A DNA stretch of 64,000 nt from Gammaproteobacteria bacterium (GTDB lineage Bacteria > Pseudomonadota > Gammaproteobacteria > UBA9214): assembly GCA_029860045.1 (NCBI GenBank), contig JAOUBY010000003.1:65-64064 (forward strand), written 5' to 3'. The notes below the pieces were generated by a model. That model saw only the letters and a program-made list of their open reading frames with translations, made no database searches and was not told the origin of the DNA. Both the position numbers and the translations under genes were made by a program. Position 1 is the stretch's first letter, and each line of letters opens with the position of its first letter. Positions 5,099-57,165 of this stretch are shown piece by piece.

Positions 5099-5209
5099 GT
5101 CGAGCAGCAGGTAATCAACAGGCAGTTATGGGCGGTAATCGCAATGGTTCTGATTCTACCGAATCTCGTGTCAGGTACTTCTCCCGTTAAAAGATCCCGG
5201 GTGTAGTCG

Positions 5210-11516: not shown

Positions 11517-11603
11517 ATTAAAACCTGGCACGACCTGCAGGTGCTGTAACTTGTGTTAAGTACCGGGGGCGTCAATTCTTATAAGGAACAGAAGGGATTC
11601 ATC

Positions 11604-22015: not shown

Positions 22016-23239
22016 ATGTCAATGATTGTTCTGGCGCTGCGCAATCTGTTTCGGCATTGGAAACGGACGGCCATTGCCCTGGCCGCCATTGGTTTTGGCG
22101 TGATTGCCCTGTTGCTTGCAGGCGGGTTCATCGATTGGATCTTCTGGGGTATGCGGGAGGGGGCTATCCAGTCACGCCTCGGCCATATACAGATCACCCG
22201 CCCCGGCTATTTTGAAACTGGAAGTGCGGATCCTTTTGCGTACCTGCTACCCGATCAGCTAAACGAAGAGGAAATTATCGGGTTGCGGCCCGAGATTCGA
22301 GTAATTACACCACGCTTGGCATTCAACGGCCTGATCAGCCATGGCGATGTCACGATTGGATTTTCCGGCGAAGGTGTGGATCCCGAAAAAGAGGCATCCG
22401 TCAGTCAGCATTTAATCATCACAAAGGGTGAGAACCTTGGCCCGGATGATCCGACAGGCCTGTTGCTGGGTGCCGGGTTGGCTGACAACCTTGGTGTAAC
22501 CGTGGGGGATAGTGTGGTCCTGCTGGCGAATACGGCATCCGGCGGGTTAAGTGGTGTTGAAGGGCCGGTGCGTGGCTTGTTCCAGAGTGCATCGAAGGCA
22601 TTTGATGACGCCGCGTTGCGGGTGCCGGTTGATACTGCCAGAAGCCTGTTGCGGGTCTCCAGTGCCCATAGCTGGGTACTGTTACTGGATGAAACCGAAA
22701 AAACAGATGAGGTTCTGCTGTATCTGCAGGAACGCTTCCCGGTATCGGAAAGCGGTTTGCAGTTCACTCCCTGGTACGCACTGGCCGATTTCTATAACAA
22801 GACAGTTGCCTTGCTCTCCCGGCAAATGAGCGTGGTCCAGCTGATCATCGCCCTCATTATTGTACTCAGTATCTCCAATACCCTGGTGATGAGCGTGCTT
22901 GAAAGAACCGGCGAGACGGGGACGTTGATGGCCATCGGAGTCAGGCGTCGAAGAATATTGCATATGTTTGTTACTGAAGGTCTGTTATTGGGAGTGATAG
23001 GTGGTTTGGGTGGGGTTGCCGTGGGAGGCTTGTTGGCCATGGTCATATCAGCTGTCGGCATCCCGATGCCACCCCCGCCCGGTATGGATGTGGGCTTTAG
23101 CGGGAAGATCCTGCTTAGTTGGCCACTGATTGCCGGAGTGATGGCGCTTGCCATTGGAACAACATTATTGGCGAGCCTCTACCCGGCCTGGAAGGCTTCG
23201 CGCCTGGAGATTGTAAATGCGTTGCGCCATAACCGATAA
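22016..23239 (+). CDS. ABC transporter permease, FtsX/LolC/LolE (MacB-type) family
   Basis: MSMIVLALRNLFRHWKRTAIALAAIGFGVIALLLAGGF N-terminal TM, a large periplasmic domain and three C-terminal TM helices: LolC/E topology. Confidence 0.85.
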   Translation: MSMIVLALRNLFRHWKRTAIALAAIGFGVIALLLAGGFIDWIFWGMREGAIQSRLGHIQITRPGYFETGSADPFAYLLPDQLNEEEIIGLRPEIRVITPRLAFNGLISHGDVTIGFSGEGVDPEKEASVSQHLIITKGENLGPDDPTGLLLGAGLADNLGVTVGDSVVLLANTASGGLSGVEGPVRGLFQSASKAFDDAALRVPVDTARSLLRVSSAHSWVLLLDETEKTDEVLLYLQERFPVSESGLQFTPWYALADFYNKTVALLSRQMSVVQLIIALIIVLSISNTLVMSVLERTGETGTLMAIGVRRRRILHMFVTEGLLLGVIGGLGGVAVGGLLAMVISAVGIPMPPPPGMDVGFSGKILLSWPLIAGVMALAIGTTLLASLYPAWKASRLEIVNALRHNR

Positions 23240-23298
23240 ATCTAACTACGGGACGACATTATGATTTCAGTCCATATTATGAGTGTCAGTTAATTACC

Positions 23299-24510
23299 AT
23301 GTTTCTGCTGGCATTCCGCAGTATTTTCCGTCACAAGGTAAGAACCGGTTTGACCCTTGCCGCTATTATCTTCGGTGTGGGCAGCCTGGTTCTCATCGGC
23401 GGTTTTGTTGAGGACATTTTTATTCAGTTGCAAGAGGCAACAGTTCATTCGCAGCTCGGCCACATTCAGGTCTATCGTTCAGGTTATACAAAGCTGGGGC
23501 GACGCAACCCTTACGGGTATCTGATTGATAAGCCGGAGCAGATATTGGAGTCTGCCGCTGATTTACCCCAGGTGTCAGATCAACTCCTGCGGGTGAAATT
23601 CGCAGGTCTGGCGAATAATGGTCGTGCGGACCTGCCAGTGATAGGGGAAGCTGTCCAGCCTGACAAGGAGGCGCGACTCGGAAGCGCGATGACTATCACC
23701 AGTGGCAGGCAGCTTACCGGTAATGACCCCCACGGTATTCTTGTCGGTCAGGGGGTGGCGGATGCCTTGCAACTCGAGCCGGGTGATTATCTTACCTTGC
23801 TTGTCAACACAACCGACGGTGTACTTAATAGTCATGAGTTCGAGGTGATTGGTATATTCCGGACTTTTGCCCGTGATTATGACAACCGTGCTGTTCGCAT
23901 TTCACTGGTTTCCGGACAGGACCTGATTGGGACCAGTGGAGTGCACAGCGTCGTGCTGTCACTTGACACCACTGAAGCCACGGACTCTGTGGCAAGGGCC
24001 CTGCAACAACAACTCACCCCGCAGGACTATGAAGTAAGAACATGGTATGAGCTTTCCGATTTTTACGGCAAGACAGTTAATCTTTACCGCAGGCAATTTA
24101 CCGTCCTGCAGCTCATCATCCTGTTGATGGTCCTGTTAACCGTGGCAAACAGCGTGAACATGGCGATCTACGAGCGTATCGGGGAATTTGGCACCCTGAA
24201 GGCCCTGGGCGACAGGCAGCGGGATATCTTCCGGCAGGTCATGAAGGAAAATATGCTGCTGGGTCTGCTTGGTGCGGGTTTGGGAGTGGCTATCGGTGTC
24301 GCACTGGCATGGGCGATATCCGGGGTCGGGATAGACATGCCGCCACCGCCGAATTCCGATGTGGGTTATACCGCCTACATTCGCCTGGTTCCCGGGGTGA
24401 TTGCTATGGCCTTCGGGGTTGGCGTTATTGCGACGGTGTGTGCTGCACTGTTACCCGCCTGGCGTGTCTCGCGACTGCCCGTGGCCGAGGCCTTGCGGGA
24501 GAATGTGTGA
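23299..24510 (+). CDS. Second FtsX/LolC/LolE-type ABC permease (tandem paralog)
   Basis: Same architecture as the previous gene (MFLLAFRSIFRHKVRTGLTLAAIIFGVGSLVLIGGF...). Confidence 0.85.
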   Translation: MFLLAFRSIFRHKVRTGLTLAAIIFGVGSLVLIGGFVEDIFIQLQEATVHSQLGHIQVYRSGYTKLGRRNPYGYLIDKPEQILESAADLPQVSDQLLRVKFAGLANNGRADLPVIGEAVQPDKEARLGSAMTITSGRQLTGNDPHGILVGQGVADALQLEPGDYLTLLVNTTDGVLNSHEFEVIGIFRTFARDYDNRAVRISLVSGQDLIGTSGVHSVVLSLDTTEATDSVARALQQQLTPQDYEVRTWYELSDFYGKTVNLYRRQFTVLQLIILLMVLLTVANSVNMAIYERIGEFGTLKALGDRQRDIFRQVMKENMLLGLLGAGLGVAIGVALAWAISGVGIDMPPPPNSDVGYTAYIRLVPGVIAMAFGVGVIATVCAALLPAWRVSRLPVAEALRENV

Positions 24511-24523
24511 GGTCCGAAGGGCG

Positions 24524-25378
24524 CTATCTCGCTAGTTTTTTCAGATAATTCTTGGTAAAGGTCTTGTCCGGCAGCTTGCGCAAGCGCATGCCGCTGTAGT
24601 CCATGACGGAACGGCCTTCCTTGTGCAGGGCATCTTCCATAATGAGTTGGGTCGGACGTATCGTGTTGCCAAAATTCTGGTAGGCCCGGAAGTGGCAGGT
24701 TTTTATCAGCCGGTTGGACAGGGTAAAAAACTCAGCCTTGAAGGGTCTGTAATTGGCCTGATTGACCCAGTAAAGCACGCGGTGGTATGTCACACCTCTG
24801 CGCGACGCCTTCAGTTCGAGTAAGTAATAGTTTTCTTTTCCGATAGTCTCGGTACGCAGCAGGGTGGGTTCATAGTCGCCGGTAAAGTTGGCACGCGCGA
24901 GGTCGCCATTGGCCACTTCGCCGGTGAGCTTTTGTGACAGGGGCAGGCGTACCGGCTGGGACAGGTTGGGGAGGAATGCCCACAGGTCATGATCGCGCAT
25001 GAGTAGAATGGTGCCCTTGTCGATGGCGGGCGCCGTGGTCATCAACAGGGTTCTGTCATTGCCTTTGGACAGTACCCGGTATTGCTTGACCTCGGGGTCG
25101 CGATCGGGCCCGGTGGTGGTGACCTTGATATCGACCTGGAACCCTTCTGCGGGGAAGCGGATCCGGTCCGCCTTTTCCACGATCTGTTGCGGGGTGAACT
25201 TTGCTGCTTTGGCCGCAAATACATGTGATGTCTGCCCGGATAAATTCCAGCACAATACAATTAACACGGCGGCTGCAATCCGCCCGTATCCTGGTAAAGA
25301 GCCTGGCTTGCCAGGCGTAGAGTGTGATTTTCCTGTCACTGTGGGTATCCGTAAAATGGTCAGGCTTGTGTTGCGCAA
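24524..25378 (-). CDS. LolA-like periplasmic outer-membrane lipoprotein-sorting/carrier family protein; start uncertain
   Basis: Signal segment IAAAVLIVLCWNLSGQTSHVFA and a soluble beta-rich domain resembling LolA-like lipoprotein-sorting proteins that commonly sit beside FtsX permease pairs. Convergent with the permease genes. Confidence 0.6.
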   Translation of the reverse strand: MRNTSLTILRIPTVTGKSHSTPGKPGSLPGYGRIAAAVLIVLCWNLSGQTSHVFAAKAAKFTPQQIVEKADRIRFPAEGFQVDIKVTTTGPDRDPEVKQYRVLSKGNDRTLLMTTAPAIDKGTILLMRDHDLWAFLPNLSQPVRLPLSQKLTGEVANGDLARANFTGDYEPTLLRTETIGKENYYLLELKASRRGVTYHRVLYWVNQANYRPFKAEFFTLSNRLIKTCHFRAYQNFGNTIRPTQLIMEDALHKEGRSVMDYSGMRLRKLPDKTFTKNYLKKLAR

Positions 25379-25804
25379 TAGTATACCTATAGTCCTTTCT
25401 GCCAGAATAAAGTTTCACGCAGAAAGCTGTTCCATTACGACCATCAGAAGACCGACATAATTTTGACCACACCGGAACGCGCTGTGGCCAAGAGAACCGG
25501 TATCCCTTCCTGCGGCTTTTATTGCTTGGTTGTGCGTGTCCCATTGCGCGGCACGGATATTTTATTAGCTTGAAGTTACAGCTGCCCGGGATGGGTATTC
25601 GCCTGCTGGCGTGAAGGTTGGGGTAATATAGCTTCCGGTGTGAATACGGGCATATTTTCATCCATTACACATCTGTTCCGGATGCCAATTATGTGTATTA
25701 TGCTGGACCTCACAGTTACATCTTCCCAAACAGGTTTTAATCAACACAAGTTATTTCAGTATGCATACTGCAGGTGAATCTATCAGTGCATTCAAAGGGC
25801 GACG

Positions 25805-26485
25805 ATGCTGAGTGACTTCCTGGTAAGTGTTAAGAAGGTCTCCAAGGAATATGCCTTCGGCAAACAGAAAGTACAGGCGCTCAGGGAGGTCTCCCTGGCC
25901 GTGCTCGGTGGCGAGTTTCTGGCGATTGCAGGGCCCTCCGGCAGCGGTAAGTCGACCCTTCTGAATCTGATCGGCTGTATTGATACGCCAACAACCGGCT
26001 CTATTTCTATAGAGAATCAGGAAACCGTTAACCAGACGCCCGACCAGTTGGCAGACCTGCGTGCCCGAAAAATCGGCTTCATATTCCAGACGTTCAATCT
26101 GTTACCGGTACTTTCCGCGTTTGAAAACGTGGAATACCCGCTGCTTCGCCTTAAACTGGACAAGACAGAACGGCATCAGCGCGTGTCTCAATATCTTGAA
26201 CTCGTCGGGGTGAACGAGTTTGCAACACACCGGCCTAACCAGCTAAGTGGCGGTCAGCGACAGAGAGTCGCCATAGCCAGGGCATTGATTGCCCAACCCA
26301 GTATTGTCCTGGCCGACGAACCAACGGCCAACCTCGATCACAGGACGGGCGAGGGTATCCTCGACCTGATGTCGCGTATCAACCGGGACAATGGCACGAC
26401 CTTTATCTTTTCCACACATGACGCCCGGGTGATCGAGATGGCCGGCCGGGTGGTCAGGCTAAGCGATGGTGAAATTGTTCAGTAA
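25805..26485 (+). CDS. ABC transporter ATP-binding protein (LolD/MacB-type ATPase)
   Basis: Walker A GPSGSGKST, ABC signature LSGGQRQRVAIARAL, Walker B ILLADEPT; 226 aa. Confidence 0.9.
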   Translation: MLSDFLVSVKKVSKEYAFGKQKVQALREVSLAVLGGEFLAIAGPSGSGKSTLLNLIGCIDTPTTGSISIENQETVNQTPDQLADLRARKIGFIFQTFNLLPVLSAFENVEYPLLRLKLDKTERHQRVSQYLELVGVNEFATHRPNQLSGGQRQRVAIARALIAQPSIVLADEPTANLDHRTGEGILDLMSRINRDNGTTFIFSTHDARVIEMAGRVVRLSDGEIVQ

Positions 26486-26599
26486 TATTGTGCAGATGTC
26501 AGGAGATTGCTTCGTCGCTTTGCTCCTCGCAATGACCGGAATAACCGGGAGCCTGTAACGGATAGCTGCATCCGCATGCGCGGCCTTTGAATTACTGCT

Positions 26600-28579
26600 T
26601 CATTCCTGCCAAAGCAGTTTTTCGAACGGTTTTCTGATAGAGCGCGCTGTCGGGTCGCGACCCGCGCCGATTCTGCCCATGAAGACGGCGTGTTCAACCT
26701 TTTCCGGTAATACCAGTTGTGCAAGCCGGTCGGCCAGTTTCCCTGCCAGTTCCTGACTGTGTTTATTTTCCGAAAACGCCACATTATCCCGTGTGTAGCC
26801 ACTGAATATCAGCGGTGTCATTTCCGGCTGGAGTTTCAGGCCATGCAGGGTGGCCGTCAGCCAGAAACGTTGCACGGCGCGGCCGGCTGCTACAAAGTCA
26901 TCCAGGGTTTCCGCTGGGCGGGATGCCATGATTATAAAATGTGACGCGCATGCGATTCCGGGAATGAAGTCCAGTTCCACGCGCGGAATGAGTGTTCCGC
27001 CCATGAAGCGATTGAGGAAGTCCACGCGCCGCCAGCTGACCATGGCCCAGCGCATCAGCTGCAAGGTCATGGGATCCAGCCCTACCGCCCTGGCGGGAAC
27101 CCGGTCTTCACTGTGCCTGGAATCCCACTGGATGATGGACCTGTGTGTTTCAAAGGCTTCAGGAAGGGTAAGGCGCAGGCCACCATTCTGGAATAGCAGT
27201 CGCGCCATACGCAAACGGTCGCGGAAATCATTGAACCATACAATGCGATATTCACTGCCAACGGCCGTCTCCAGCTGTTCTCGAACGCTGGCAGTAACCG
27301 GCCGGGTTGATAGCGGCCGCCGTTGTACAGTGCGCTCGCTGATAAAGGGCAGCAAGGGATCTTTCTGGATATTCGGGTCAGCAAGGAATGCGACATCGAA
27401 GGTCGGACTGGTCGCAGGCAGTCCCGGGCGTGCCCGGAACTCGGCGTACAGGCCATGGTGACTGGCCGCGATGCTGATGGTTTCAAGCAGCGTGCCCAGT
27501 GCGAGCTGGCTGGCATGGCCCCTCAGGTCGTAGACGCAGTGCTCGCGCGTATCGTGGCCGTGAATAACCGCATGGTGCGGGTCGATAATTTCAAACCGCC
27601 ACGGCTGGCTGTTGTCTCCGCTGGGGGCCCAGCGGGCATGATCCAGTATTTGCCGGGCCACGCTGTTACTGGCTCCGGCTGCTTTGCCCCCGTCAGGGGG
27701 CGGGGCAGATGTTAATTTCTGGCTGAATCTGCGTCTTGCCAGCATGAGGCCAAGTTGTTGCAGCGGGTTTCGATTCCCTCCCGGGCGCCAGGTTGTAACC
27801 AGTTGGTTACGGTAGGCGTCGAAATGAAGGCCGTGTGGTGCGGCAATGACCTTGCCGCGTCCAAGCAGTATTTTCAGTGCCTGGGTGGCCGCAATGCCGG
27901 AGCACAGCTCGCAGGCCATTGGAGTTGATGGCCCCCGGTGTTCGGCAAGCCTGACTGCTGTCGGGTCAACCAGGTAGCGACCCTGCAGCATGGCAGGAGA
28001 AAGGCCGAGCAGGAACCGCAGCAACTGTTCTTCCTCGTCATGGCCATCAAGTTGAAAGTATTCCTCGAACGTCATGCTGCCGGGCAGAAAATTCAATAAC
28101 GCGGCGCCCATGCCAAGCGGTGCAGCGGTAACCGCCGGAACACCCAGCCGGCTGCAGGAATCGAACGCAGCACGTCGTGCCTCAAGGGCAAAAAAATCCA
28201 GACCGTCGATGTACAGGTCAATACCCGTCAGAAAATCATCTGCATTGCCCTGATCAATCCCGTCGGGGAATATTCTCAGGTCAAGCTCCGGGTTGATGTC
28301 CAGCGCACGTTCTGCAAGGGCATCGGTCTTCTTTCTTTCGAGGGTGGAGAGGGCGGCTCCTGCCTGGCGGTTGAAATTCGCGATCTCGAAGGAGTCGAAG
28401 TCAGCCAGTGTGAAGGCGCCGATCCCGAGACGTGTCAGGGTCAGCAGGTGACTGCCCCCGACGCCGCCGAGTCCTGCAATGGCGACACGTTTGGTGCGCA
28501 GTGTGGCTTGCTCTGATGATGTGACCCAGCCGATGTTGCGTGAGAATGCGGCTGTATAGTCGAATTGGCCTGTCGACAT
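26600..28579 (-). CDS. Fusion protein: N-terminal ThiF/MoeB E1-like adenylyltransferase domain plus C-terminal nitroreductase-superfamily (SagB/McbC-like) domain
   Basis: N-terminus RVAIAGLGGVGGSHLLTLTRLGIGAFTLADFDSFEIANFNRQ (E1 Rossmann GxGxxG plus NxxRQ). C-terminal half ARQILDHARWAPSGDNSQPWRF is nitroreductase signature. ATG at 28579 preferred over the TTG at 28600. Confidence 0.8.
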   Translation of the reverse strand: MSTGQFDYTAAFSRNIGWVTSSEQATLRTKRVAIAGLGGVGGSHLLTLTRLGIGAFTLADFDSFEIANFNRQAGAALSTLERKKTDALAERALDINPELDLRIFPDGIDQGNADDFLTGIDLYIDGLDFFALEARRAAFDSCSRLGVPAVTAAPLGMGAALLNFLPGSMTFEEYFQLDGHDEEEQLLRFLLGLSPAMLQGRYLVDPTAVRLAEHRGPSTPMACELCSGIAATQALKILLGRGKVIAAPHGLHFDAYRNQLVTTWRPGGNRNPLQQLGLMLARRRFSQKLTSAPPPDGGKAAGASNSVARQILDHARWAPSGDNSQPWRFEIIDPHHAVIHGHDTREHCVYDLRGHASQLALGTLLETISIAASHHGLYAEFRARPGLPATSPTFDVAFLADPNIQKDPLLPFISERTVQRRPLSTRPVTASVREQLETAVGSEYRIVWFNDFRDRLRMARLLFQNGGLRLTLPEAFETHRSIIQWDSRHSEDRVPARAVGLDPMTLQLMRWAMVSWRRVDFLNRFMGGTLIPRVELDFIPGIACASHFIIMASRPAETLDDFVAAGRAVQRFWLTATLHGLKLQPEMTPLIFSGYTRDNVAFSENKHSQELAGKLADRLAQLVLPEKVEHAVFMGRIGAGRDPTARSIRKPFEKLLWQE

Positions 28580-28848
28580 TAACCTGTTTCCGGGTTGCAA
28601 ATACCAATTTACGACATTGAATTCAGCATGGAAGCAGTTGCTGATCGATTCTGGCGCCCGACATGATTTCTACCAGGCAAAGTTCTGTGGCGCTAATAGT
28701 ATGTTGTGTCAGGTGGTGTGTCTAATGCTATTAAGAGGACTGACCTGGCGACGTCCTTCTGGCGTGACCATGCATTGACCTGTTTAATCGATGCCGGCTT
28801 TTCATGCCTGACCTGAAAGGCGGTTTCAGATGCCGGTATAACGTCAAT

Positions 28849-28864
28849 TGTGACGCTTGTCACA
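28849..28864. promoter_or_regulatory. Perfect CRP/FNR-type palindrome TGTGA-N6-TCACA in a divergent intergenic region
   Basis: TGTGACGCTTGTCACA: both half-sites match the CRP core exactly with 6-nt spacing. It lies between the E1-nitroreductase gene (minus) and acyltransferase gene 1 (plus), about 190 nt from the latter. Confidence 0.45.
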
Positions 28865-29055
28865 GATTAAGGGAGCGCAAGGCAGCTCAGTTGTGGTGTT
28901 GTTCTCAATACAATCAATGTCCTGCCGATAGGATGTTTATTGTTATCCAAGGTTCGCATGTGATGTGTTTGGGTGAGTTCATGGAGAACCTGAGCCTGCC
29001 GACTGAGATGTTCCGGTTACCATCCATAGTGAGTCGTCGTTGAAGAGACGAAAAT

Positions 29056-29829
29056 ATGAGTGATTTGTGTGATTTATTTTTTCAGTACTTTGATGTCATT
29101 CTGGACGATCAGCCGGGTGTTATAGACGAAGCCACCAGACTTCGCTACCAGGTGTATTGCATAGAAAATGATTTTGAGGATGCGTCCCGGTTTGATGATG
29201 ACAGGGAAGTGGATGAGTATGACCGGCGTTCTGTTCACAGTGTTGTCAGGCACAGGAAGCTGGGAGTAACCGCAGCCTCTGTCAGGCTGGTCCTGTCAGA
29301 CCAGGAATGTCCTGAAGCGCTTTTCCCGATCGAGGAGAACTGTGCTGCATCCCTAAAGGCCTGTCCTTCAATCTTTCGTGGTATCCCGCGCAATGCCATA
29401 GCTGAAATATCACGCTTTGCCGTTTCCAAGGATTTCAAGCGCCGGCATGGCGAGGCCGGCAACCCTGCCGGTGTCGGTCCAGACCCGGACCGGTATCTAA
29501 CGCCTGATTTAAACAGGCGGAGAGTCATTCCCCACCTGATCCTGGGTTTATTTGCCGCGATAGTAAAAATGAGTGCAGAGCATCATGTTACCCACTGGTA
29601 TGCCGTGATGGATGTTTCTCTGCTGCGCCTGTTGACCCGCTTTGGTATCAACTTCATGCCCATGGGAGGGCAGGTGGATTACCATGGATTGCGGCAACCC
29701 TGCTTTGGCAGTGTGGACGAGGTGCTGGCCGGGATATGGGAGAAACGCCCGGATATCTGGCGCTTGATCACTGCTGACGGGGTCGTATGGCCAGCCCCGG
29801 CAGATCATGCCGTGAGTGCCGGTGGATAG
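29056..29829 (+). CDS. GNAT-fold N-acyl amino acid synthase/autoinducer-synthase-like acyltransferase (PEP-CTERM/exosortase-associated acyltransferase family), copy 1
   Basis: 257 aa; the RLRYQVYCIENDFED N-terminal block and overall length match FeeM/NasY-type N-acyl amino acid synthases and the exosortase-associated acyltransferase family (TIGR03694-like, from memory). Confidence 0.7.
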   Translation: MSDLCDLFFQYFDVILDDQPGVIDEATRLRYQVYCIENDFEDASRFDDDREVDEYDRRSVHSVVRHRKLGVTAASVRLVLSDQECPEALFPIEENCAASLKACPSIFRGIPRNAIAEISRFAVSKDFKRRHGEAGNPAGVGPDPDRYLTPDLNRRRVIPHLILGLFAAIVKMSAEHHVTHWYAVMDVSLLRLLTRFGINFMPMGGQVDYHGLRQPCFGSVDEVLAGIWEKRPDIWRLITADGVVWPAPADHAVSAGG

Positions 29830-30214: not shown

Positions 30215-30970
30215 ATGAGCGAACTCTATAACACGTTTCATAGCCATTTCGACGTGGTCTCGGCGGATACCGTCGGCCTGATGGAGACGGCCTTCAGGAT
30301 GCGTTACCAGGTCTATTGCCTGGAGAGGTCATACGAAGATGCAGAGTCCTTTCCGGACCAAATGGAGATTGACGAGTTCGATATGCACTCGGCCCACAGC
30401 CTGGTGAGGTGCCAGCGATCCGGGCAGTATGCTGGCCTGGTCAGGCTGGTCCTGCCAAATCCGGTAGATATGGACAAGCCGTTACCACTGGAGAAATTCT
30501 GCCACTCTGCCATGCAGAAAGCGGGTATTGATTTATCTTCCATTCCCCGGGACCGCATGGCTGAAATCTCGAGATTTTCGATTTCAAAGGAACTAAAGCG
30601 TCAGTGTGCGCAGAAGTCTGCTGTTTCAGCCACCGGTGATGTTGTTGATGGCGTGGATACCCGGATGACGCCACAAATAGTACTCGGTCTGTTTGCGGGG
30701 GTCGTTCGAATGAGTGCCCAGAACAATATTACTCACTGGTTGGCTGTTATGGAGCCAACCTTGCTCAGGTTCCTTTCACGCTATGGCATCTACTTCCAGA
30801 AGATCGGGCCGGTGATTGACTATCATGGCCGGCGGCAACCGACGGTTGCGAGCATCGATTCAGTATTGTCAGGGATTTATGCCCATCGTAAGGATGTCTG
30901 GGAAGTGATTACTGATTTTGGAAATGTCTGGCCGTTGGATAAGGAAGTCAAACATTTTGCAATGCCGTAG
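30215..30970 (+). CDS. GNAT-fold N-acyl amino acid synthase-like acyltransferase, copy 2 (tandem paralog)
   Basis: 251 aa; alignable to copy 1 throughout (FRMRYQVYCLERSYEDAESFPD...MAEISRFSISKELKR...THWLAVMEPTLLRFLSRYGI). Confidence 0.7.
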   Translation: MSELYNTFHSHFDVVSADTVGLMETAFRMRYQVYCLERSYEDAESFPDQMEIDEFDMHSAHSLVRCQRSGQYAGLVRLVLPNPVDMDKPLPLEKFCHSAMQKAGIDLSSIPRDRMAEISRFSISKELKRQCAQKSAVSATGDVVDGVDTRMTPQIVLGLFAGVVRMSAQNNITHWLAVMEPTLLRFLSRYGIYFQKIGPVIDYHGRRQPTVASIDSVLSGIYAHRKDVWEVITDFGNVWPLDKEVKHFAMP

Positions 30971-31107: not shown

Positions 31108-32814
31108 TCAGAACGTATAGCGCACGTTGCCATAGACCCTGTCGCTGTCATCGAAACGTCCAAACAGACCGGACGAATTTCCGCCAAATATATCGGCGCC
31201 GACTGCCAGCCACCAGTTATCCGACATCTCCCAGGTCACCTTGGGTCTCGCCATCCAGTCGCTGCGATTCAGGCCGGTTACCAGCAGCAGTTCCGCATCT
31301 ACCCGGTTGGCAATTTCCTTGCTGACGTACAGGCTGACACCGGTTTCCAGTTCATCGAAGAGAATGTCCGAGTCGTGGTCCGTATACCAGCGCTGGAATA
31401 GCTGAACATTCAGCAATGTGCCATTGGTATATGAGTGTTCGAGGCCTACTACATAATCGAGTGTGTCCTGTTGTGTTGCGCCATCCGGGTCGAGAGGGTT
31501 GTCTACAGTAAACCAGCGATCACGTGTATAGACAGCCTCGCCCTTCAGCAGGATGTTGCCAAAATCCTTTGCCACGGTGGCGCCAAGCTGGTGAATCCTG
31601 TCATGCCTGGGAGTGATGGTGAGTCGTGTGGTCATGCCTGTCTCAAGGGTGCTGAAAAACGCGGGAGAGGCATCCATGCTGCGGTAATAAAAGCCGGATA
31701 CATCCCAGCCGTGTTTCAGCATGGAAAGCCGCAGGCCAAATGCGCTGTTGGACAGCTTTTGTGACGGTTTAACATCCCCCTCGATAACCAGTTCATCCAC
31801 ACCGGGTGGTAGTTCTGTGCCCAGGGGGTAGAAATCGTCACCAGGCTTGCCGATCTCGTCATAGGTCATGTAGGGGATCCAGATGGCCTCGGTGTGAAAG
31901 TCCCCCTTGAAGTATTCTGCGCGCGCTGCCCATTGCGGGATACGTATGAGGTCAAAATCCTCTGCGACCAACTGGCGCATATCCTTTGCCGAAACGACAT
32001 CGGCAAAGAACAGTCCAACCATCTCGCCCCAGATAATGTGCTGTCTGCCCAGGCGAAACTCCAGGTCACCTGCCGAGATATCCAGGTAGGTCTCGTGTAG
32101 CGCGCCTTCAAGGCGCCGGTTGTCTTCAACACGGTCAGAATAGAAATTATCCAGGTCAAAGACTGCGTCGTAACTGCCGCGGGCGCTGACCTTCCAGGAA
32201 ACATTCTGGTTGATGCGGTCGCTGGCCTGTAGTTCCAGCGTGTTGCGGAACATCGAGGGGTGGGTAGGTGACGAATAGGTGTGGGCGTATTTTGAGTTGA
32301 AAAATCCCCGGAAATTGTATTTGTCGGTCCCTGCCTTGTCGTTGCTTGCCTGGCTCTCATCCGGGGCCGAGAGGAACAGGTCATCAATGCCGGCAGGCTC
32401 ACCTGGCCCGTCCTCTGCCCTGGCGCTACCGGTGTCCTGTCTCGTGGACGCATTGCTGCTGGCCTCGGCTAGCAATACAGGGGTGCCTGACGATGGGCTG
32501 GTCACAAGAAAACCGGGGATGTCCATGGCATCGAGCCGTTTGTGCATATATTCTGCAGTTGCCCGTTCCGGGTAGGGCCCAACCCGGACGCGGGTCAGCG
32601 ATCTTGAGCCTTTATCATTAATAATGGTGGTTGCGGGGAAACCCTGCTGCTCCAGTTTTTCCACAAACTGGGTGGCCTGGCCCTGGTCCCTGAAGGCGCC
32701 AACCTGGACGGTGTAATCGGCGCGGGAGATGATCTGGAACTGCATCATGCCGAGAGTTGCGAGGGCTGTGATGATCCAGTGTCGGGTTCGATTTAGTCGT
32801 GTCGATTTATTCAT
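31108..32814 (-). CDS. Outer-membrane beta-barrel protein with N-terminal SPOR (peptidoglycan-binding) domain
   Basis: After the signal peptide, YTVQVGAFRDQGQATQFVEKLEQQGFPATT...RVRVGPYPERATAE is a SPOR domain. It is followed by about 400 aa with alternating amphipathic strands ending in the C-terminal Phe motif ...NVRYTF typical of OM barrels. Confidence 0.7.
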   Translation of the reverse strand: MNKSTRLNRTRHWIITALATLGMMQFQIISRADYTVQVGAFRDQGQATQFVEKLEQQGFPATTIINDKGSRSLTRVRVGPYPERATAEYMHKRLDAMDIPGFLVTSPSSGTPVLLAEASSNASTRQDTGSARAEDGPGEPAGIDDLFLSAPDESQASNDKAGTDKYNFRGFFNSKYAHTYSSPTHPSMFRNTLELQASDRINQNVSWKVSARGSYDAVFDLDNFYSDRVEDNRRLEGALHETYLDISAGDLEFRLGRQHIIWGEMVGLFFADVVSAKDMRQLVAEDFDLIRIPQWAARAEYFKGDFHTEAIWIPYMTYDEIGKPGDDFYPLGTELPPGVDELVIEGDVKPSQKLSNSAFGLRLSMLKHGWDVSGFYYRSMDASPAFFSTLETGMTTRLTITPRHDRIHQLGATVAKDFGNILLKGEAVYTRDRWFTVDNPLDPDGATQQDTLDYVVGLEHSYTNGTLLNVQLFQRWYTDHDSDILFDELETGVSLYVSKEIANRVDAELLLVTGLNRSDWMARPKVTWEMSDNWWLAVGADIFGGNSSGLFGRFDDSDRVYGNVRYTF

Positions 32815-33422
32815 GCCTTGTTTTCCCGCATGGTGAGCAGCCTGGGTCAGGCTACATGTGGCTGGTAATGGGTTGCCTGATATTAAATGAACAACGAAGG
32901 CAAATGATACAGCATGATATCCGACTGCTCATCTCTATGAATGATGAACATGGCGTAAGGATTGGTCTGCAGTCAACTCATTGTCTGGCTGGATGGCTAC
33001 GCGTTGCATATCCAAAGGCCAGCTTGTCCGGCACCATGTGCCAGCGCTTCCCTGGATATTAGCTGACTTCAGTTGAAGTTTTGGGTCCGTACACAATGTG
33101 TTCGGCGGTGTGTTCTGAAAGCGCTGTCAATAATGGCCCGTGTTCGCCAATGCTGGGCCGCAGCATCAAGTGTGCATGTGCCACCACACCTTACTCGGTA
33201 CATATACTGAAGAAGAAGTCTTAGTCTTTGTAAAGTATGAATTTTTCATATGAATTTTAGTACTAAAGGCCAAGTGACATTTAATACCGCAGGTATTATA
33301 GTCTCAAGGGCTAGGTGACTGATATTTGACGTTAAATTGGCCTGAATAAATTTGTGTCTCGGCCGAGGATAAGTAAAGAAATAGAGAATTATTCAGCAAT
33401 CGTTATCCACAGGGGTTCAACT

Positions 33423-34058
33423 ATGAACACTATTAAATCTTCCTCAGCCATCATCAAGGCTGGTGTTGTCTTCATGATTTTGCTGGGTCTATCGGGATGT
33501 GCGACAACCGACTATCCCCCGCTTGAGGGCGGGCCGGCCCCCGCCCAGGTAACGCCGGACTATCTCATCGGTGCGGGTGACAGCGTCGAAATCTTTGTCT
33601 GGCGTAATCCGGAGCTGTCGAGCGGTGTGACGGTGCGTCCGGATGGCAAGATTACGACCCCTCTGATCGAGGATGTTCCCGCCAGCGGCAAGACGCCGAC
33701 CCAGTTGGCGAGAGACATGGAACAGGAACTCTCGGCCTACGTAAAGAACCCGGTCGTCACCGTCATGGTTGGCGGTTTTGTGGGTCCCTACAGCGAGCAG
33801 ATCCGTGTGGTCGGCCAGGCGGCCAACCCGCAGGCACTGCCTTATCGCGACCAGATGACAATGCTGGATCTGGTTATCGCAGTGGGTGGCTTGACGGAAT
33901 TCGCAGACGGTAATCGCTCAAGCATCGTGCGGGTGGTCGATGGGGAATGGAAACAGTTTGGTGTGCGCATCGATGACCTTGTCAACGGAGCGGATATCAG
34001 TGCCAATGCCTATGTGCTGCCTGGCGATATTCTGATCGTCCCCGAATCATGGTTCTAG
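33423..34058 (+). CDS. Polysaccharide export outer-membrane lipoprotein, Wza-like (PEP-CTERM locus EpsE-type exporter)
   Basis: Lipobox LLGLSGC. Poly_export domain motifs (YLIGAGDSVEIFVW...VTVRPDGKITTPLIEDVPASGKTPTQL) and a soluble ligand-binding beta-grasp region. Confidence 0.85.
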   Translation: MNTIKSSSAIIKAGVVFMILLGLSGCATTDYPPLEGGPAPAQVTPDYLIGAGDSVEIFVWRNPELSSGVTVRPDGKITTPLIEDVPASGKTPTQLARDMEQELSAYVKNPVVTVMVGGFVGPYSEQIRVVGQAANPQALPYRDQMTMLDLVIAVGGLTEFADGNRSSIVRVVDGEWKQFGVRIDDLVNGADISANAYVLPGDILIVPESWF

Positions 34059-34233
34059 TAAATATTCCCCGGTCACTGCCGGCAGGGCTCTGAGATATTG
34101 CAGCAGTTGACGAACAGGAAACAACAGACTGGACATTTCTGGCCTCGAGGGGCTCAAGGATCCGGCAGGGTAAGACAACTCCTCTCGAAATGTGGAGGGA
34201 ACACTCTGGTGGAAATAGGGACATTATTCTGGC

Positions 34234-35799
34234 ATGCGTGAACTTTTAGAACAGATTCTGACTTATGTAAGGGGCATCTGGCGCTATCGCTGGTTCATGA
34301 TGCTGGCGGTCTGGCTTATCTGTATTGTCGGTTGGGGCGTCGTCTATCAACTGCCTGATACGTACAAGGCAGAGGCCCGGGTCCATGTCGATACCCAGTC
34401 CATGTTGCAGCCGCTGCTGAGAGGATTGACGGTCGTTACAAATACCGGAAATCGTGTAAAGCTGGTAACGCGCACCCTGCTTAGCAGGCCAAACCTGGAA
34501 AAGCTGACGCGCATGACAGACCTGGATCTTGTGGCCTTGACGCCGTCCGACATGGAGGAGCTGCTGGACGAGCTGGGCAGTGAAATCACGATATCCGGCA
34601 CCCGGGAGCAGGACCTTTATACCATCGGCTATTCCCACAGTGACCGGCAACTGGCCAAGCGCGTGGTGCAGTCATTGCTGACCATCTTTGTCGAGAGCAC
34701 GCTTGGTGAAAGCCGTGAAGAAACGGACAGTGCCCAGGAATTCGTCGGACAGCAAATCAAGGAATACGAGGCCAAGCTCGAGGCGGCGGAACTGCGTCTT
34801 GCCGAGTTCAAGCGGACCCACGTGGGCATGATGCCGGGGTCGTCTCAGGATTATTATGGGCAGTTACAGACTGCGCTATCAGAGTTGCAGCAGGCACAGT
34901 TATCGCTTCGTGAAACGGTTAACCAGCGTAACCAGTTCAAGCAGCAGATGGAAGATGACGAGGATTCCTATCTCATGTTCAGTGAACTGCAACCCGGGAC
35001 AGGCTCGGCGCTTGATACGCGTATACAGGAACTTTACGAACGCATCGACGATCTGCAGATCAAGTACACCAATAAGCACCCTGATGTTGTCGAAATAAGA
35101 CATCTGATTGCCACGCTGGAAAAAAAGCGCGATGAAGAGCGCGCATTGATGGATGAGATGGATGTGGGGCCGGTAGACAATCCGGCCTATCAGCAATTAA
35201 AAATGCAGCTGTCACAGGCCGATGCAACGGTTGCCTCTATGCGTTCACGGGTTGGCGAATACCAGCGGCGTGTAGACCAACTACAGGAGATGGTTGACAC
35301 GATCCCGAAGGTAGAGGCGGAGCTCAGTCAGCTTAATCGTGACTACAATGTTCATCAGAAGAATTACCAGACGCTGCTCGCGCGACGGGAGTCGGCAAAT
35401 ATTTCTGAACAGGCCGAGATCAGTGGTGATCAGCTCAAGTTCCGGGTGGTCGATCCACCCCGTGTGCCGCTTCAACCATCGGCCCCCAACCGACCGTTAT
35501 TGATGACAGGGGTCCTGATTCTGAGCATTCTCGCCGGGGCTGTGCTGGCCCTGTTCCTGTTTATGCTCAGACCCACCTTTGACAGTACACGTGCTGTTAT
35601 AGAAGTGCTGGGACGACCGGTTCTTGGTGGAGTATCGATGATTCACAACCAGGCATGGAGCACCAAGCACAGGCATGCGATGCTTGCTTTCAGCCTGGCT
35701 GGTGTTGGACTACTGGCGCTGTATGTCGGCGTTATAGCGATGGACGGACTAACCAGTAATGTTGCCGGGATCGGGAAGGCTATAGTGGGGCGCGGCTGA
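34234..35799 (+). CDS. Polysaccharide chain-length determinant (Wzz-like; PEP-CTERM locus subfamily)
   Basis: N-terminal TM, a long coiled-coil periplasmic region and a C-terminal TM (LLMTGVLILSILAGAVLALFLFML); 521 aa. Confidence 0.85.
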   Translation: MRELLEQILTYVRGIWRYRWFMMLAVWLICIVGWGVVYQLPDTYKAEARVHVDTQSMLQPLLRGLTVVTNTGNRVKLVTRTLLSRPNLEKLTRMTDLDLVALTPSDMEELLDELGSEITISGTREQDLYTIGYSHSDRQLAKRVVQSLLTIFVESTLGESREETDSAQEFVGQQIKEYEAKLEAAELRLAEFKRTHVGMMPGSSQDYYGQLQTALSELQQAQLSLRETVNQRNQFKQQMEDDEDSYLMFSELQPGTGSALDTRIQELYERIDDLQIKYTNKHPDVVEIRHLIATLEKKRDEERALMDEMDVGPVDNPAYQQLKMQLSQADATVASMRSRVGEYQRRVDQLQEMVDTIPKVEAELSQLNRDYNVHQKNYQTLLARRESANISEQAEISGDQLKFRVVDPPRVPLQPSAPNRPLLMTGVLILSILAGAVLALFLFMLRPTFDSTRAVIEVLGRPVLGGVSMIHNQAWSTKHRHAMLAFSLAGVGLLALYVGVIAMDGLTSNVAGIGKAIVGRG

Positions 35800-36764: not shown

Positions 36765-36795
36765 CAACCCGGTAATCCTTAAGTTGACAAGTACC

Positions 36796-38334: not shown

Positions 38335-38339
38335 AAACC

Positions 38340-39431: not shown

Positions 39432-39493
39432 TCCCGGCAGTCTCTACCAGGCCGGCAAGTCACCAAGGAGACACTGTTCCGGCATGCCGGCAA

Positions 39494-40684: not shown

Positions 40685-40706
40685 CTGGCGGGTTTGCAGC
40701 TTTACC

Positions 40707-41579: not shown

Positions 41580-41581
41580 CA

Positions 41582-42661: not shown

Positions 42662-42664
42662 ATC

Positions 42665-46736: not shown

Positions 46737-46752
46737 GGCAGATGCACAAATC

Positions 46753-48675: not shown

Positions 48676-48679
48676 CGGC

Positions 48680-49879: not shown

Positions 49880-49935
49880 ACCCCTGTTCATCTCCAACCC
49901 AAAAAGCTGCTCTGTAGCCTGAAAGTTATAGAAAC

Positions 49936-50949: not shown

Positions 50950-51010
50950 CTGCGCCCTGGAACCGACCCCTGTTCGATTCAGTAAACCGTGAGATTATTC
51001 GATCACGATC

Positions 51011-53622: not shown

Positions 53623-53656
53623 CCGATAATCTGACAATAAACTGAAATCCGCAGAT

Positions 53657-54865: not shown

Positions 54866-54884
54866 CTTGGACAGGCTTCGGATT

Positions 54885-55676: not shown

Positions 55677-55844
55677 TGCAGAACCAGGCAATAACAAGGT
55701 TTTATTGCCCTGGCGTGCACGGGTTATGGAAATGCAGGGGCTGGAGATATTCCAGGATTGTGAAAGCACTTCGTCTTTTTATACTGATCCGGCATTACAG
55801 TAGCTTTCTGCTGGCAGAGCCAAACTGATAACGGTACCTGTATC

Positions 55845-57161: not shown

Positions 57162-57165
57162 TAAC

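What the first reader, a model, noticed from the sequence alone, without database searches (positions are those of the whole stretch)
26600..28579. ThiF/MoeB E1-like adenylyltransferase fused to a nitroreductase/SagB-like dehydrogenase, without YcaO or a ThiS/MoaD-type partner
E1-like scaffold plus FMN dehydrogenase is the pairing seen in thiazole/oxazole-modified microcin (TOMM) synthetases (McbB/McbC, SagC/SagB). Here the two are fused in one 660-aa protein and no YcaO cyclodehydratase, precursor peptide or sulfur-carrier protein is visible within 10 kb. Its neighbours are instead FeeM-like N-acyltransferases and a Lol-like transporter. This suggests a different substrate, for example adenylation and oxidation of an acyl-amino-acid or lipid carboxylate. 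The domain combination in this context looks unassigned.
Basis: partly seen in the sequence, partly recalled or inferred. Interest (0 to 1): 0.7.

Follow-up and report, generated by a model that had tools for sequence, protein, structure and literature searches.

The report
OxzB-type oxazolone synthetase gene
The fused ThiF–nitroreductase gene belongs to a known enzyme family (OxzB oxazolone synthetases) that cyclises and oxidises the N-acyl amino acids made by the neighbouring acyltransferases; the less expected point is that it lies inside an exosortase/PEP-CTERM exopolysaccharide locus.

Summary
Window 26600-28579 (minus strand) encodes a 659-aa protein with an N-terminal ThiF-like adenylating domain and a C-terminal nitroreductase-superfamily domain. 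No YcaO, precursor peptide or Gly-Gly sulfur carrier lies nearby.

The domain pair is not unassigned. It is the architecture of OxzB, the oxazolone synthetase described by de Rond, Asay and Moore (2020/21), and of mycobacterial TrzS and TyzB/TyzC. The window protein is 51% identical over its full length to the heterologously expressed Colwellia chukchiensis OxzB. It is 62% identical to the Ca. Tenderia electrophaga protein listed among OxzB homologues. It keeps 60 of 61 family-conserved positions, including the ThiF catalytic Asp (D128).

The C-terminal domain is the Acg-like monomeric flavin-dependent oxidase type (Foldseek hit 2YMV), not SagB/McbC.

The two adjacent "FeeM-like" genes are N-acyl amino acid synthases, the OxzA role. 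The first is divergent from oxzB, an arrangement already catalogued.

Most likely mechanism: ATP-dependent adenylation and cyclisation of an N-acyl amino acid, then FMN/O2-dependent Cα–Cβ desaturation to an unsaturated azlactone.

One lead remains. In 51 of 65 well-flanked species loci the gene sits among XrtA/PEP-CTERM genes. I found no paper in the searchable library that mentions both OxzB and exosortase.

The parts
26600..28579 (-). oxzB-like gene: 659-aa ThiF-like cyclase fused to an Acg-like flavin-dependent oxidase
   Evidence: ORF and translation. Pfam ThiF plus Nitroreductase. NCBIfam PRK08223, PRK14851, Rv1355c family and Acg family. 51% identity over residues 5-656 to C. chukchiensis OxzB, P0320. 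AF2 model with pLDDT 86.8.
27716..28579 (-). ThiF-like adenylation/cyclisation domain (aa 1-288): G36xGGxG41, D60, R71, K84, D128
   Evidence: Alignment to E. coli ThiF 1ZFN places D128 on ThiF Asp127, R71 on Arg70 and K84 on Lys83. These residues are invariant in 42 close homologues and at least 93% conserved in 76 diverse ones. Foldseek: 1ZUD/1ZFN, target TM-score 0.80-0.83.
27671..27715 (-). Interdomain linker (aa 289-303), predicted disordered
   Evidence: pLDDT below 50 for residues 289-303. Poorly conserved in alignment A1.
26603..27670 (-). Acg-like monomeric nitroreductase-superfamily (FDO-A type) oxidase domain (aa 304-659). Conserved residues: R316-W-A-P-S-G-D-N323-x-Q-P-W, R416/R420, R636, R649
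   Evidence: NF047509 Acg family, E 1e-32. Foldseek 2YMV (M. smegmatis Acg homologue), E 5e-12, target TM-score 0.74 over 373 columns. Conserved residues.
29056..29829 (+). NAS1: N-acyl amino acid synthase (OxzA role), transcribed divergently from oxzB
   Evidence: TIGR03694, 255 bits against a cutoff of 112; Pfam Acetyltransf_5 and FeeM. The 'oxzA upstream, opposite strand' arrangement is listed for Ca. Tenderia and Methylothermaceae in Table S1 of de Rond et al..
30215..30970 (+). NAS2: second N-acyl amino acid synthase paralogue (43% identical to NAS1)
   Evidence: TIGR03694, 268 bits. Pairwise comparison. The C. chukchiensis locus also has two NAS genes upstream of oxzB. NAS2 is 32% identical to the C. 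chukchiensis gene immediately upstream of oxzB.
28580..29055 (.). Divergent intergenic region between oxzB and NAS1
   Evidence: Sequence. One sigma-70-like match at 28724-28696 (minus strand), but matches in the region are not above chance.
22016..26485 (.). Context: Lol-like module, a candidate exporter for the lipid product (role inferred). Two LolCE-like permeases, a LolA-like protein on the minus strand, and a LolD-like ATPase
   Evidence: Pfam and NCBIfam. The same module, with a SPOR/DUF1302 protein, lies within 10 kb of the oxzB homologue in 9 of 80 species loci.
31108..32814 (-). Context: SPOR + DUF1302 protein that travels with the Lol-like module
   Evidence: Pfam SPOR and DUF1302. 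Co-occurrence.
14399..15688 (+). Context: EryCIII/MGT-like GT1 glycosyltransferase, a recurrent neighbour of oxzB homologues
   Evidence: Pfam and NCBIfam. A homologue lies within 10 kb of oxzB in 19 of 80 loci.
3689..14399 (+). Context: XrtA/PEP-CTERM priming glycosyltransferase (TIGR03013), PrsK, PrsR and two PrsT paralogues
   Evidence: NCBIfam TIGR03013, TIGR02916, TIGR02915 and TIGR02917 (twice), all above cutoff. PrsT homologues flank oxzB in 46 of 80 loci.
33354..59121 (+). Context: canonical XrtA/PEP-CTERM exopolysaccharide locus, including exosortase A at 43927-45513
   Evidence: NCBIfam equivalogs above cutoff: TIGR03027, 03007, 03018, 03016, 03015, 03006, 03019, 03087, 03109, 03088, 03108, 04063 and 03097.

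Best explanation
The gene encodes an OxzB-type oxazolone (azlactone) synthetase.

Proposed pathway:
1. The two adjacent N-acyl amino acid synthases (NAS1, NAS2) acylate an amino acid with a fatty acyl group. The amino acid is probably aromatic, but this was not determined.
2. [quoted passage not shown] D128 stands in for ThiF Asp127.
3. The amide oxygen closes onto the activated carbonyl, giving a saturated 5(4H)-oxazolone.
4. The C-terminal Acg-like FMN domain removes two hydrogens across C-alpha and C-beta, using O2. The product is a 4-alkylidene or 4-arylidene oxazolone. This ring hydrolyses readily to an N-acyl-alpha,beta-dehydroamino acid.

Shown here: architecture, intact conserved residues, close homology to an expressed OxzB, and adjacency to NAS genes.

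Inferred from characterised homologues: ATP and O2 dependence, FMN as cofactor, and the order cyclisation then desaturation.

Inferred from context only: the gene set is part of the XrtA/PEP-CTERM exopolysaccharide programme, and the Lol-like transporter may export the product.
For: Family and homology:
- Pfam ThiF plus Nitroreductase. NCBIfam full-length fusion model, Rv1355c family and Acg family.
- 51% identity and 68% positives over residues 5-656 to C. chukchiensis OxzB (P0320, 650 aa). That protein was heterologously expressed by de Rond et al. (Table S1; results).
- 62% identity to the Ca. Tenderia electrophaga protein (P0037) listed in the same table.

Conserved residues:
- The window protein matches 60 of 61 columns that are at least 90% conserved in 75 diverse family members. 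The single difference is V for I.
- The ThiF ATP-site residues map onto 1ZFN.

Structure:
- AF2 model pLDDT 86.8.
- Foldseek finds ThiF/MoeB for the N-terminal half and 2YMV (Acg homologue) for the C-terminal half. The TrzS authors used the same two reference structures.

Gene neighbourhood:
- Two NAS genes are adjacent.
- A NAS gene lies within 400 bp of the homologue in 56 of 80 species loci.
- Fusion proteins exist: NAS-ThiF-FDO (P0214) and GNAT-ThiF (P0199).

Biochemistry of homologues:
- OxzA/OxzB were reconstituted in vitro and need ATP.
- For TrzS, the activity is ATP- and O2-dependent, the cofactor is FMN, D217A abolishes cyclisation, and cyclisation comes first.
Against: - No experiment on this protein exists.
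- NAS1 and NAS2 are only 25-32% identical to the C. chukchiensis NAS pair. The amino acid and acyl chain, and hence the exact product, are unknown.
- The score against the full-length NCBIfam model PRK14851 is below that model's cutoff (385 against 1170 bits). The protein therefore belongs to a different subgroup from that model's seed sequences.
- I could not fetch TrzS or P. rubra OxzB sequences. The mutated FDO residues of TrzS (R540, Q651) could not be mapped onto this protein.
- In producers of N-acyl dehydrotyrosines no oxazolone has been observed (PMC12479983). The stable end product in vivo may therefore not be the ring.
Confidence: 0.85

Rival explanations
1. The chemistry is the same, but the physiologically relevant product is not the free oxazolone. 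It would be either the ring-opened N-acyl-alpha,beta-dehydroamino acid, as in thalassotalic acids and stieleriacines, or a further decorated (for example glycosylated) lipid. The Lol-like ABC transporter, LolA-like protein and DUF1302 protein would export this product for a role in the XrtA/PEP-CTERM matrix.
For: - Oxazolones hydrolyse within hours at pH 8 and are opened by acid or alcohols.
- Producers of N-acyl dehydrotyrosines carry NAS + ThiF + nitroreductase genes, yet no oxazolones were seen.
- A GT1 glycosyltransferase homologue lies within 10 kb of the gene in 19 of 80 loci. A Lol-like module does so in 9 of 80.
- XrtA/PEP-CTERM markers flank the gene in 51 of 65 loci of at least 12 kb.
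- Knocking out the PEP-CTERM-associated NAS in Methylomonas LW13 abolishes the polysaccharide band.
Against: [quoted passage not shown]
- In this window the GT1 gene is 11 kb away.
- No transport or glycosylation data exist.
- This reading extends the main explanation rather than excluding it.
Confidence: 0.3
2. TOMM-like reading: the E1-like domain docks or activates a ribosomal peptide, and the flavin domain oxidises azolines to azoles.
For: Only a broad resemblance. ThiF-like and nitroreductase-fold proteins work together in McbBCD/SagBCD, and nitroreductase-family enzymes do dehydrogenate azolines (introduction of de Rond et al.).
Against: - No YcaO in the annotated genes from 16996 to 38334.
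- No hit to TIGR03605 or TIGR03693 at E <= 0.01.
- The flavin domain is Acg-like. 2YMV is the only nitroreductase-type structure among the 50 Foldseek matches listed.
- The homologue 51% identical to this protein came from an oxzAB pair whose expression in E. coli gave small-molecule oxazolones.
Confidence: 0.02
3. Database annotation reading: a ThiF/MoeB-type adenylyltransferase that activates a sulfur-carrier protein for thiamin or molybdopterin synthesis.
For: Public names such as 'thiamine biosynthesis protein ThiF' and 'molybdopterin/thiamine biosynthesis adenylyltransferase'. Shared ATP-site residues.
Against: - Scores against the ThiF, MoeB, MoeZ and TcdA equivalog models are far below their cutoffs, for example TIGR02356 at 72 bits against 275.
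- No ThiS/MoaD-like small ORF ending in Gly-Gly.
- No rhodanese domain.
- The domain is fused to an oxidase and adjacent to NAS genes in most genomes.
Confidence: 0.02
4. The enzyme acts on a macromolecular carboxylate in the exosortase pathway, for example a protein C-terminus generated by XrtA, rather than on a free N-acyl amino acid.
For: Apart from the OxzB/Tyz/Trz oxazolone enzymes, characterised ThiF-like enzymes act on proteins, peptides or tRNA. The gene is embedded in XrtA/PEP-CTERM loci.
Against: - Close homology to OxzB enzymes that act on small molecules.
- A NAS gene is immediately adjacent in 56 of 80 loci, and NAS-ThiF-FDO fusions exist.
- No peptide-clamp or other extra domain: the architecture is two domains joined by a short linker.
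Confidence: 0.03

Closest known systems
OxzB oxazolone synthetase with OxzA N-acyltransferase (Pseudoalteromonas rubra, Colwellia chukchiensis, Rheinheimera pacifica, Undibacterium pigrum, Skermanella aerolata; de Rond, Asay & Moore, bioRxiv 10.1101/2020.06.11.147165)
   Same: - Same two-domain order and length (650-712 aa).
- 51% identity over the full length to the C. chukchiensis enzyme.
- Adjacent NAS gene.
- The C. chukchiensis locus also has two NAS genes, a PEP-CTERM protein, two PrsT-like TPR proteins and an exosortase next to oxzB.
   Different: - Here the first NAS gene is divergent from oxzB rather than co-directional. That variant is already listed for two homologues.
- The NAS proteins are only 25-32% identical to the Colwellia pair, so substrate choice may differ.
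- This protein itself is untested.
TrzS (Rv1355c, formerly 'MoeY') with TrzA of Mycobacterium tuberculosis, M. smegmatis and Rhodococcus (PMC12856293)
   Same: [quoted passage not shown] It carries out ATP-dependent cyclisation and then O2-dependent desaturation of an N-acyl amino acid. Acg (2YMV) and ThiF (1ZFN) are the nearest solved folds.
   Different: The score against the Rv1355c-family model is 191 bits against a cutoff of 476. TrzS falls in a different similarity-network subcluster from OxzB. It occurs in actinobacteria, has an N-terminal extension and makes tryptophan-derived products.
TyzA/TyzB/TyzC of M. tuberculosis (PMC10404671) and the NAS + ThiF + nitroreductase clusters for N-acyl dehydrotyrosines in Stieleria, Thalassotalea and Massilia (PMC7293339, PMC12479983)
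   Same: The same three activities. The Stieleria cluster also contains a PEP-CTERM protein and lies next to EPS genes.
   Different: The ThiF and FDO parts are separate proteins. Split genes also occur among this window's relatives, for example Massilia. The order of the two steps is not obligate in Tyz.
TcdA/CsdL, tRNA threonylcarbamoyladenosine dehydratase
   Same: It is the best sequence match among solved structures (E 1e-13). It performs ATP-dependent cyclodehydration of an N-acylated (carbamoylated) amino acid carboxylate.
   Different: Its substrate is tRNA and it has no oxidase domain. The score against the TcdA equivalog is 59 bits against a cutoff of 304.
TOMM synthetases (McbB/C/D, SagB/C/D)
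   Same: An E1-like protein works together with a nitroreductase-fold FMN dehydrogenase that aromatises a five-membered heterocycle.
   Different: TOMM synthetases need YcaO and a ribosomal precursor peptide, both absent here. Their dehydrogenase belongs to a different nitroreductase subgroup. Their heterocycle forms from Cys/Ser/Thr side chains, not from the C-terminal carboxylate.

Membership tests
OxzB-type oxazolone synthetase (ThiF-FDO fusion) | N-terminal ThiF-like domain with intact ATP-binding and catalytic residues (Gly-rich loop, Arg, Lys, Asp equivalent to ThiF D127 / TrzS D217) | tested here: met
   Pfam ThiF, E 1e-37. G36xGGxG41, D60, R71, K84 and D128 align to ThiF 1ZFN. They are invariant or at least 93% conserved. 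Foldseek target TM-score 0.80-0.83 to ThiF.
OxzB-type oxazolone synthetase (ThiF-FDO fusion) | C-terminal monomeric Acg-like flavin-dependent oxidase domain of the nitroreductase superfamily | tested here: met
   NF047509 Acg family, E 1e-32 over residues 311-589. Foldseek 2YMV, E 5e-12, target TM-score 0.74. Family-conserved N323, R416, R420, R636 and R649 are present.
OxzB-type oxazolone synthetase (ThiF-FDO fusion) | Full-length sequence similarity to an experimentally studied member | tested here: met
   51% identity over residues 5-656 to C. chukchiensis OxzB, P0320. 62% identity to the Ca. Tenderia homologue listed by de Rond et al.. 60 of 61 conserved columns match.
OxzB-type oxazolone synthetase (ThiF-FDO fusion) | Adjacent N-acyl amino acid synthase gene (oxzA role) | tested here: met
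   NAS1 starts 477 bp from the oxzB start codon on the opposite strand, and NAS2 follows it. A NAS gene lies within 400 bp in 56 of 80 related loci.
OxzB-type oxazolone synthetase (ThiF-FDO fusion) | ATP- and O2-dependent conversion of N-acyl amino acids to unsaturated oxazolones; bound FMN | not testable with these tools
   Known only for homologues.
TrzS / Rv1355c family (NCBIfam NF005901) | Score at or above the equivalog cutoff (476 bits) | tested here: not met
   191 bits. The protein is related to this family but is not a member of this subfamily.
TOMM synthetase (SagB/McbC dehydrogenase + E1-like docking protein + YcaO) | YcaO cyclodehydratase and a precursor peptide in the cluster | tested here: not met
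   No YcaO family hit in the Pfam or NCBIfam scans of the annotated genes from 16996 to 38334.
TOMM synthetase (SagB/McbC dehydrogenase + E1-like docking protein + YcaO) | SagB-type dehydrogenase (TIGR03605) or ocin_ThiF_like (TIGR03693) signature | tested here: not met
   Neither model appears among the 21 NCBIfam hits at E <= 0.01.
ThiF/MoeB sulfur-carrier adenylyltransferases | Equivalog-level score, and a ThiS/MoaD partner ending in Gly-Gly | tested here: not met
   TIGR02356 scores 72 bits against 275, and TIGR02355 scores 49 against 377. No small Gly-Gly ORF was found.
PEP-CTERM/exosortase-associated N-acyl amino acid synthase (TIGR03694), for the two neighbouring genes | Score above the model cutoff, and location in an exosortase locus | tested here: met
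   255 and 268 bits against a cutoff of 112. Exosortase A lies at 43927-45513 and the full XrtA gene set is in the window.

The most novel reading that the evidence does not exclude
The oxazolone synthetase would be a functional component of the XrtA/PEP-CTERM system rather than a bystander. The unsaturated azlactone is an ATP-charged, amine-reactive lipo-amino-acid. It could be used to lipidate the deacetylated exopolysaccharide, PEP-CTERM proteins, or an intermediate of either, or to signal for their assembly. The Lol-like ABC transporter, LolA-like protein and DUF1302 protein would deliver it across the envelope.

If true, this would give a role to the N-acyl amino acid synthases long linked to exosortase loci, and a biological function to bacterial oxazolones. 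My evidence shows only conserved co-location (51 of 65 loci) and is silent on chemistry.
Probability: 0.1. Interest if true: 0.75.

Novelty: new member of a known kind. Interest (0 to 1): 0.3.

Why it matters
Public databases still call these proteins 'ThiF' or 'thiamine/molybdopterin biosynthesis adenylyltransferase', whereas the family makes lipid oxazolones.

The wider value is modest but real. [quoted passage not shown] Three observations suggest that one experiment could address both questions, namely knocking out oxzB in a cultivable exosortase-bearing species and scoring EPS or floc formation:
- In most species sampled the oxazolone synthetase gene lies among PrsK/PrsR/PrsT and XrtA EPS genes.
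- This includes the locus of an experimentally expressed OxzB.
- A NAS knockout in Methylomonas abolishes the polysaccharide band.

Tried and rejected
- Craig, Cherry & Brady 2011 (PMC3187218), the paper linking NAS to PEP-CTERM, is not held. I cite it only through papers that summarise it.
- I could not obtain the sequences of P. rubra OxzB or of TrzS. The TrzS variants R540A and Q651A could therefore not be mapped onto this protein.
- phmmer of the C-terminal domain alone against PDB sequences found only the short APSxxNxQPW motif in ordinary nitroreductases, with E values of 0.04 or weaker. The Acg relationship needed the NCBIfam profile and the fold search.
- A sigma-54 promoter scan (TGGCAC-N5-TTGC, one mismatch allowed) gave 9 matches against 7.4 expected, so there is no enrichment. 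None lies in the oxzB-NAS1 intergenic region.
- Sigma-70 and terminator scans of 26300-31200 were at chance level.
- My first HMM for NAS, built from the two window proteins, found NAS genes in only 20 of 80 loci. The missing ones belong to a separate FeeM (PF21926) subfamily. A second HMM raised the count to 64 of 80.
- The TOMM and sulfur-carrier readings were considered and rejected (see rival explanations).
Full report
**1. What is in the sequence**

The minus strand of the window carries an ORF from 28600 (TTG) to 26600. Its first ATG is at 28579, giving a 659-aa protein that begins MSTGQFDY. Pfam places a ThiF domain at residues 13-271 (E 1e-37). It finds only a 30-residue stretch of the Nitroreductase model, at residues 309-337.

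NCBIfam is more informative:
- The N-terminal 290 residues match PRK08223 above its cutoff (438 bits against 266).
- The whole protein aligns end to end with PRK14851, a 679-aa 'hypothetical protein' fusion model (residues 8-650, 385 bits, below that model's cutoff).
- The C-terminal half matches the 'Rv1355c family' (191 bits) and the 'Acg family FMN-binding oxidoreductase' (residues 311-589, E 1e-32).
- The ThiF, MoeB, MoeZ and TcdA equivalogs score far below their cutoffs.

**2. The neighbourhood**

- The two genes on the other side of a 476-bp divergent intergenic region are 29056-29829 and 30215-30970. They are 43% identical to each other.
- Both match TIGR03694, 'PEP-CTERM/exosortase system-associated acyltransferase', well above cutoff. 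They also hit Pfam Acetyltransf_5 and FeeM.
- On the other side lie two LolCE-like permeases, a LolA-like protein and a LolD-like ATPase. Beyond them are a hexapeptide transferase and a PEP-CTERM protein.
- The rest of the window is a textbook XrtA/PEP-CTERM exopolysaccharide locus. It holds the priming glycosyltransferase, PrsK, PrsR and two PrsT paralogues at 3.7-14.4 kb.
- The export, chain-length, tyrosine-kinase, outer-membrane-protein, ATPase, deacetylase, FemAB, glycosyltransferase, exosortase A, amidotransferase and O-antigen-ligase-like genes lie at 33-59 kb.
- No YcaO family hit appears in the scans of the annotated genes from 16996 to 38334. No small ORF between 10 and 45 kb ends in Gly-Gly.

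**3. The fusion is common and already characterised**

A search of 5.8 billion proteins returned more than 2,000 hits. The best 120 are nearly all 648-702 aa long (one is a 614-aa fragment) and 57-76% identical, and nearly all are recorded with both Pfam domains. A search of cluster representatives found 671 clusters at E <= 1e-30.

- OxzA, an N-acyltransferase, makes N-acyl-Tyr or N-acyl-Phe.
- OxzB, the ThiF-nitroreductase fusion, converts these into tyrazolones and phenazolones (unsaturated azlactones) in an ATP-dependent reaction.

In Mycobacterium the same chemistry is performed by TyzA/TyzB/TyzC (PMC10404671) and by TrzA plus the fusion TrzS (Rv1355c) (PMC12856293). For TrzS:
- the protein binds FMN;
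- cyclisation needs ATP and comes first;
- desaturation needs O2;
- D217A abolishes cyclisation, while R540A and Q651A impair the flavin domain;
- the nearest solved structures are E. coli ThiF (1ZFN) and M. smegmatis Acg (2YMV).

Planctomycete and gammaproteobacterial producers of N-acyl dehydrotyrosines carry the same three gene types (PMC7293339, PMC12479983).

**4. Is the window protein a member?**

*Similarity.* Table S1 of de Rond et al. lists Ca. Tenderia electrophaga A0A0S2TIG7 (682 aa) as an OxzB homologue with oxzA 'immediately upstream, opposite strand'. That protein is P0037, 62% identical to the window protein over its full length. Nitrosospira sp. 56-18, also in the table, is my locus L009 (56% identical). 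A second protein search returned the C. chukchiensis protein (P0320, 650 aa). It matches, by organism and length, the table entry for a C. chukchiensis protein that was expressed heterologously. It is 51% identical and 68% similar to the window protein over residues 5-656.

*Residues.* Alignment to ThiF 1ZFN puts D128 on ThiF Asp127, the residue the TrzS authors targeted as D217. It puts R71 on Arg70, K84 on Lys83 and D60 on Asp59, and G36xGGxG41 forms the glycine-rich loop. All are invariant in 42 close homologues. They are at least 93% conserved in 76 full-length family members that go down to 29% identity. Of the 61 columns that are at least 90% conserved among the other 75 members, the window protein matches 60. 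The exception is V147 in place of I. The catalytic apparatus is therefore not degenerate.

*Fold.* An AlphaFold2 model (mean pLDDT 86.8) shows two well-predicted domains joined by a disordered linker at residues 289-303. Foldseek against the PDB finds ThiF, MoeB, AclA, MccB and PaaA for the first domain (target TM-score up to 0.85). For the second it finds 2YMV, the M. smegmatis Acg homologue (E 5e-12, target TM-score 0.74, 373 columns). That is the only nitroreductase-type entry among the 50 matches listed. The oxidase domain is thus the Acg-like single-chain pseudo-dimer (FDO-A), not the SagB/McbC type.

*Partner gene.* I built two HMMs, one from the window's TIGR03694-type NAS proteins and one from the FeeM-type ORFs found upstream of the Nitrosospira and Massilia homologues. 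With both, 64 of 80 species-representative loci have a NAS gene in the flanks, and 56 have one within 400 bp.

*Fusions.* A triple fusion FeeM-ThiF-nitroreductase exists (P0214, 870 aa). So do a GNAT-ThiF fusion (P0199), methyltransferase-ThiF fusions and proteins with the reversed order FDO-ThiF. In Massilia and others the two halves are separate adjacent genes.

**5. Mechanism**

By homology the most likely sequence is:
1. NAS1 and/or NAS2 N-acylate an amino acid.
2. The ThiF-like domain adenylates the free carboxylate.
3. The amide oxygen attacks to give the saturated oxazolone.
4. The FMN domain desaturates C-alpha/C-beta with O2.

The steps are shown for homologues and inferred here. The amino acid and acyl chain cannot be predicted. 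NAS1 and NAS2 are only 25-32% identical to the Colwellia pair.

The ring is labile. The species that persists in vivo may therefore be the N-acyl dehydroamino acid or a derivative.

**6. The context**

- Among the 80 loci, PrsT homologues lie within 10 kb in 46.
- The XrtA export, chain-length and kinase genes do so in about 20.
- At least one XrtA/PEP-CTERM marker is present in 51 of the 65 loci of at least 12 kb.
- The locus of the expressed C. chukchiensis OxzB has the same make-up: two NAS genes, oxzB, a PEP-CTERM protein, two PrsT-like TPR proteins and an exosortase.
- The link between NAS and PEP-CTERM was published in 2011 (Craig et al., cited). A NAS knockout in Methylomonas LW13 loses the polysaccharide band.
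- In the searchable library no paper mentions both OxzB (or 'oxazolone synthetase') and exosortase. The OxzB preprint contains neither 'exosortase' nor 'PEP-CTERM'.
- A Lol-like module with a SPOR/DUF1302 protein accompanies the gene in 9 loci. A GT1 glycosyltransferase does so in 19. These are candidates for export and decoration, by inference only.

**7. Verdict**

The gene is a new, untested member of a known enzyme family. The residual interest lies in the conserved embedding of that family in exosortase loci. This offers a route to the unknown biological role of bacterial oxazolones.

Noticed in passing
window 8679-11516 and 11553-14399 (+); 5210-8679 (+): Two tandem PrsT (TIGR02917) paralogues follow PrsK and PrsR. 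PrsT homologues are the most frequent neighbour of oxzB-like genes, present in 46 of 80 loci.
   Followed up: partly
window 20343-20357 (-), 30097-30111 (+), 3289-3303 (-): Sigma-54-like -24/-12 matches (one mismatch each) lie 60-105 bp upstream of three genes on the correct strand: the PEP-CTERM protein gene, NAS2 and ORF 2548-3228. PrsR is a sigma-54 activator. However, the window-wide count is at chance level (9 matches against 7.4 expected).
   Followed up: partly
window 16996-18792 (-): A 598-aa protein with a signal peptide and no Pfam or NCBIfam match. Its N-terminal region resembles the adjacent PEP-CTERM protein (18978-20261) but it lacks the PEP-CTERM tail. Homologues were seen in only 2 of 80 loci.
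   Followed up: partly
window 14399-15688 (+) and 15752-16729 (+): An EryCIII/macrolide-GT-like GT1 glycosyltransferase and a 2-oxoacid-dehydrogenase-type acyltransferase-like protein. The GT recurs within 10 kb of oxzB homologues in 19 of 80 loci. Both sit next to oxzB in Nitrosospira multiformis (L005). This may mean the lipo-amino acid is decorated.
   Followed up: partly
window 31108-32814 (-): A protein with an N-terminal SPOR domain and a DUF1302 domain. It travels with the Lol-like ABC/LolA-like module next to oxzB in Nitrosospira, Thiobacillaceae and Burkholderiales loci.
   Followed up: partly
P0214, P0199, P0207, P0269, P0179, P0184; loci L043-L080 (Massilia and others): Architectural variants of the family: a NAS-ThiF-FDO triple fusion, a GNAT-ThiF fusion, methyltransferase-ThiF fusions, the reversed order FDO-ThiF, and split adjacent ThiF and FDO genes.
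   Followed up: partly
loci L005 8949-9809 and L043 9154-9936, compared with window 29056-30970: Two distinct NAS subfamilies serve as the OxzA partner. They are the TIGR03694/Acetyltransf_5 type (23 ORFs) and the FeeM PF21926 type (48 ORFs). The hit sets of the two HMMs do not overlap. L009 and L012 (Nitrosospira) carry one of each.
   Followed up: yes
window 52246-53622 (+) and 53657-54865 (+): Inside the XrtA EPS locus lie a PaaK/F390-synthetase-like adenylate-forming enzyme and a protein with weak hits to squalene-hopene-cyclase C-terminal and GH127 domains. Neither is among the named XrtA-associated families.
   Followed up: no
window 2001-4000, 12001-14000 and 56001-60000: GC content ranges from 0.48 (2-4 kb and 56-60 kb) to 0.66 (12-14 kb, within the second PrsT gene). 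GC skew is positive across almost the whole window.
   Followed up: no
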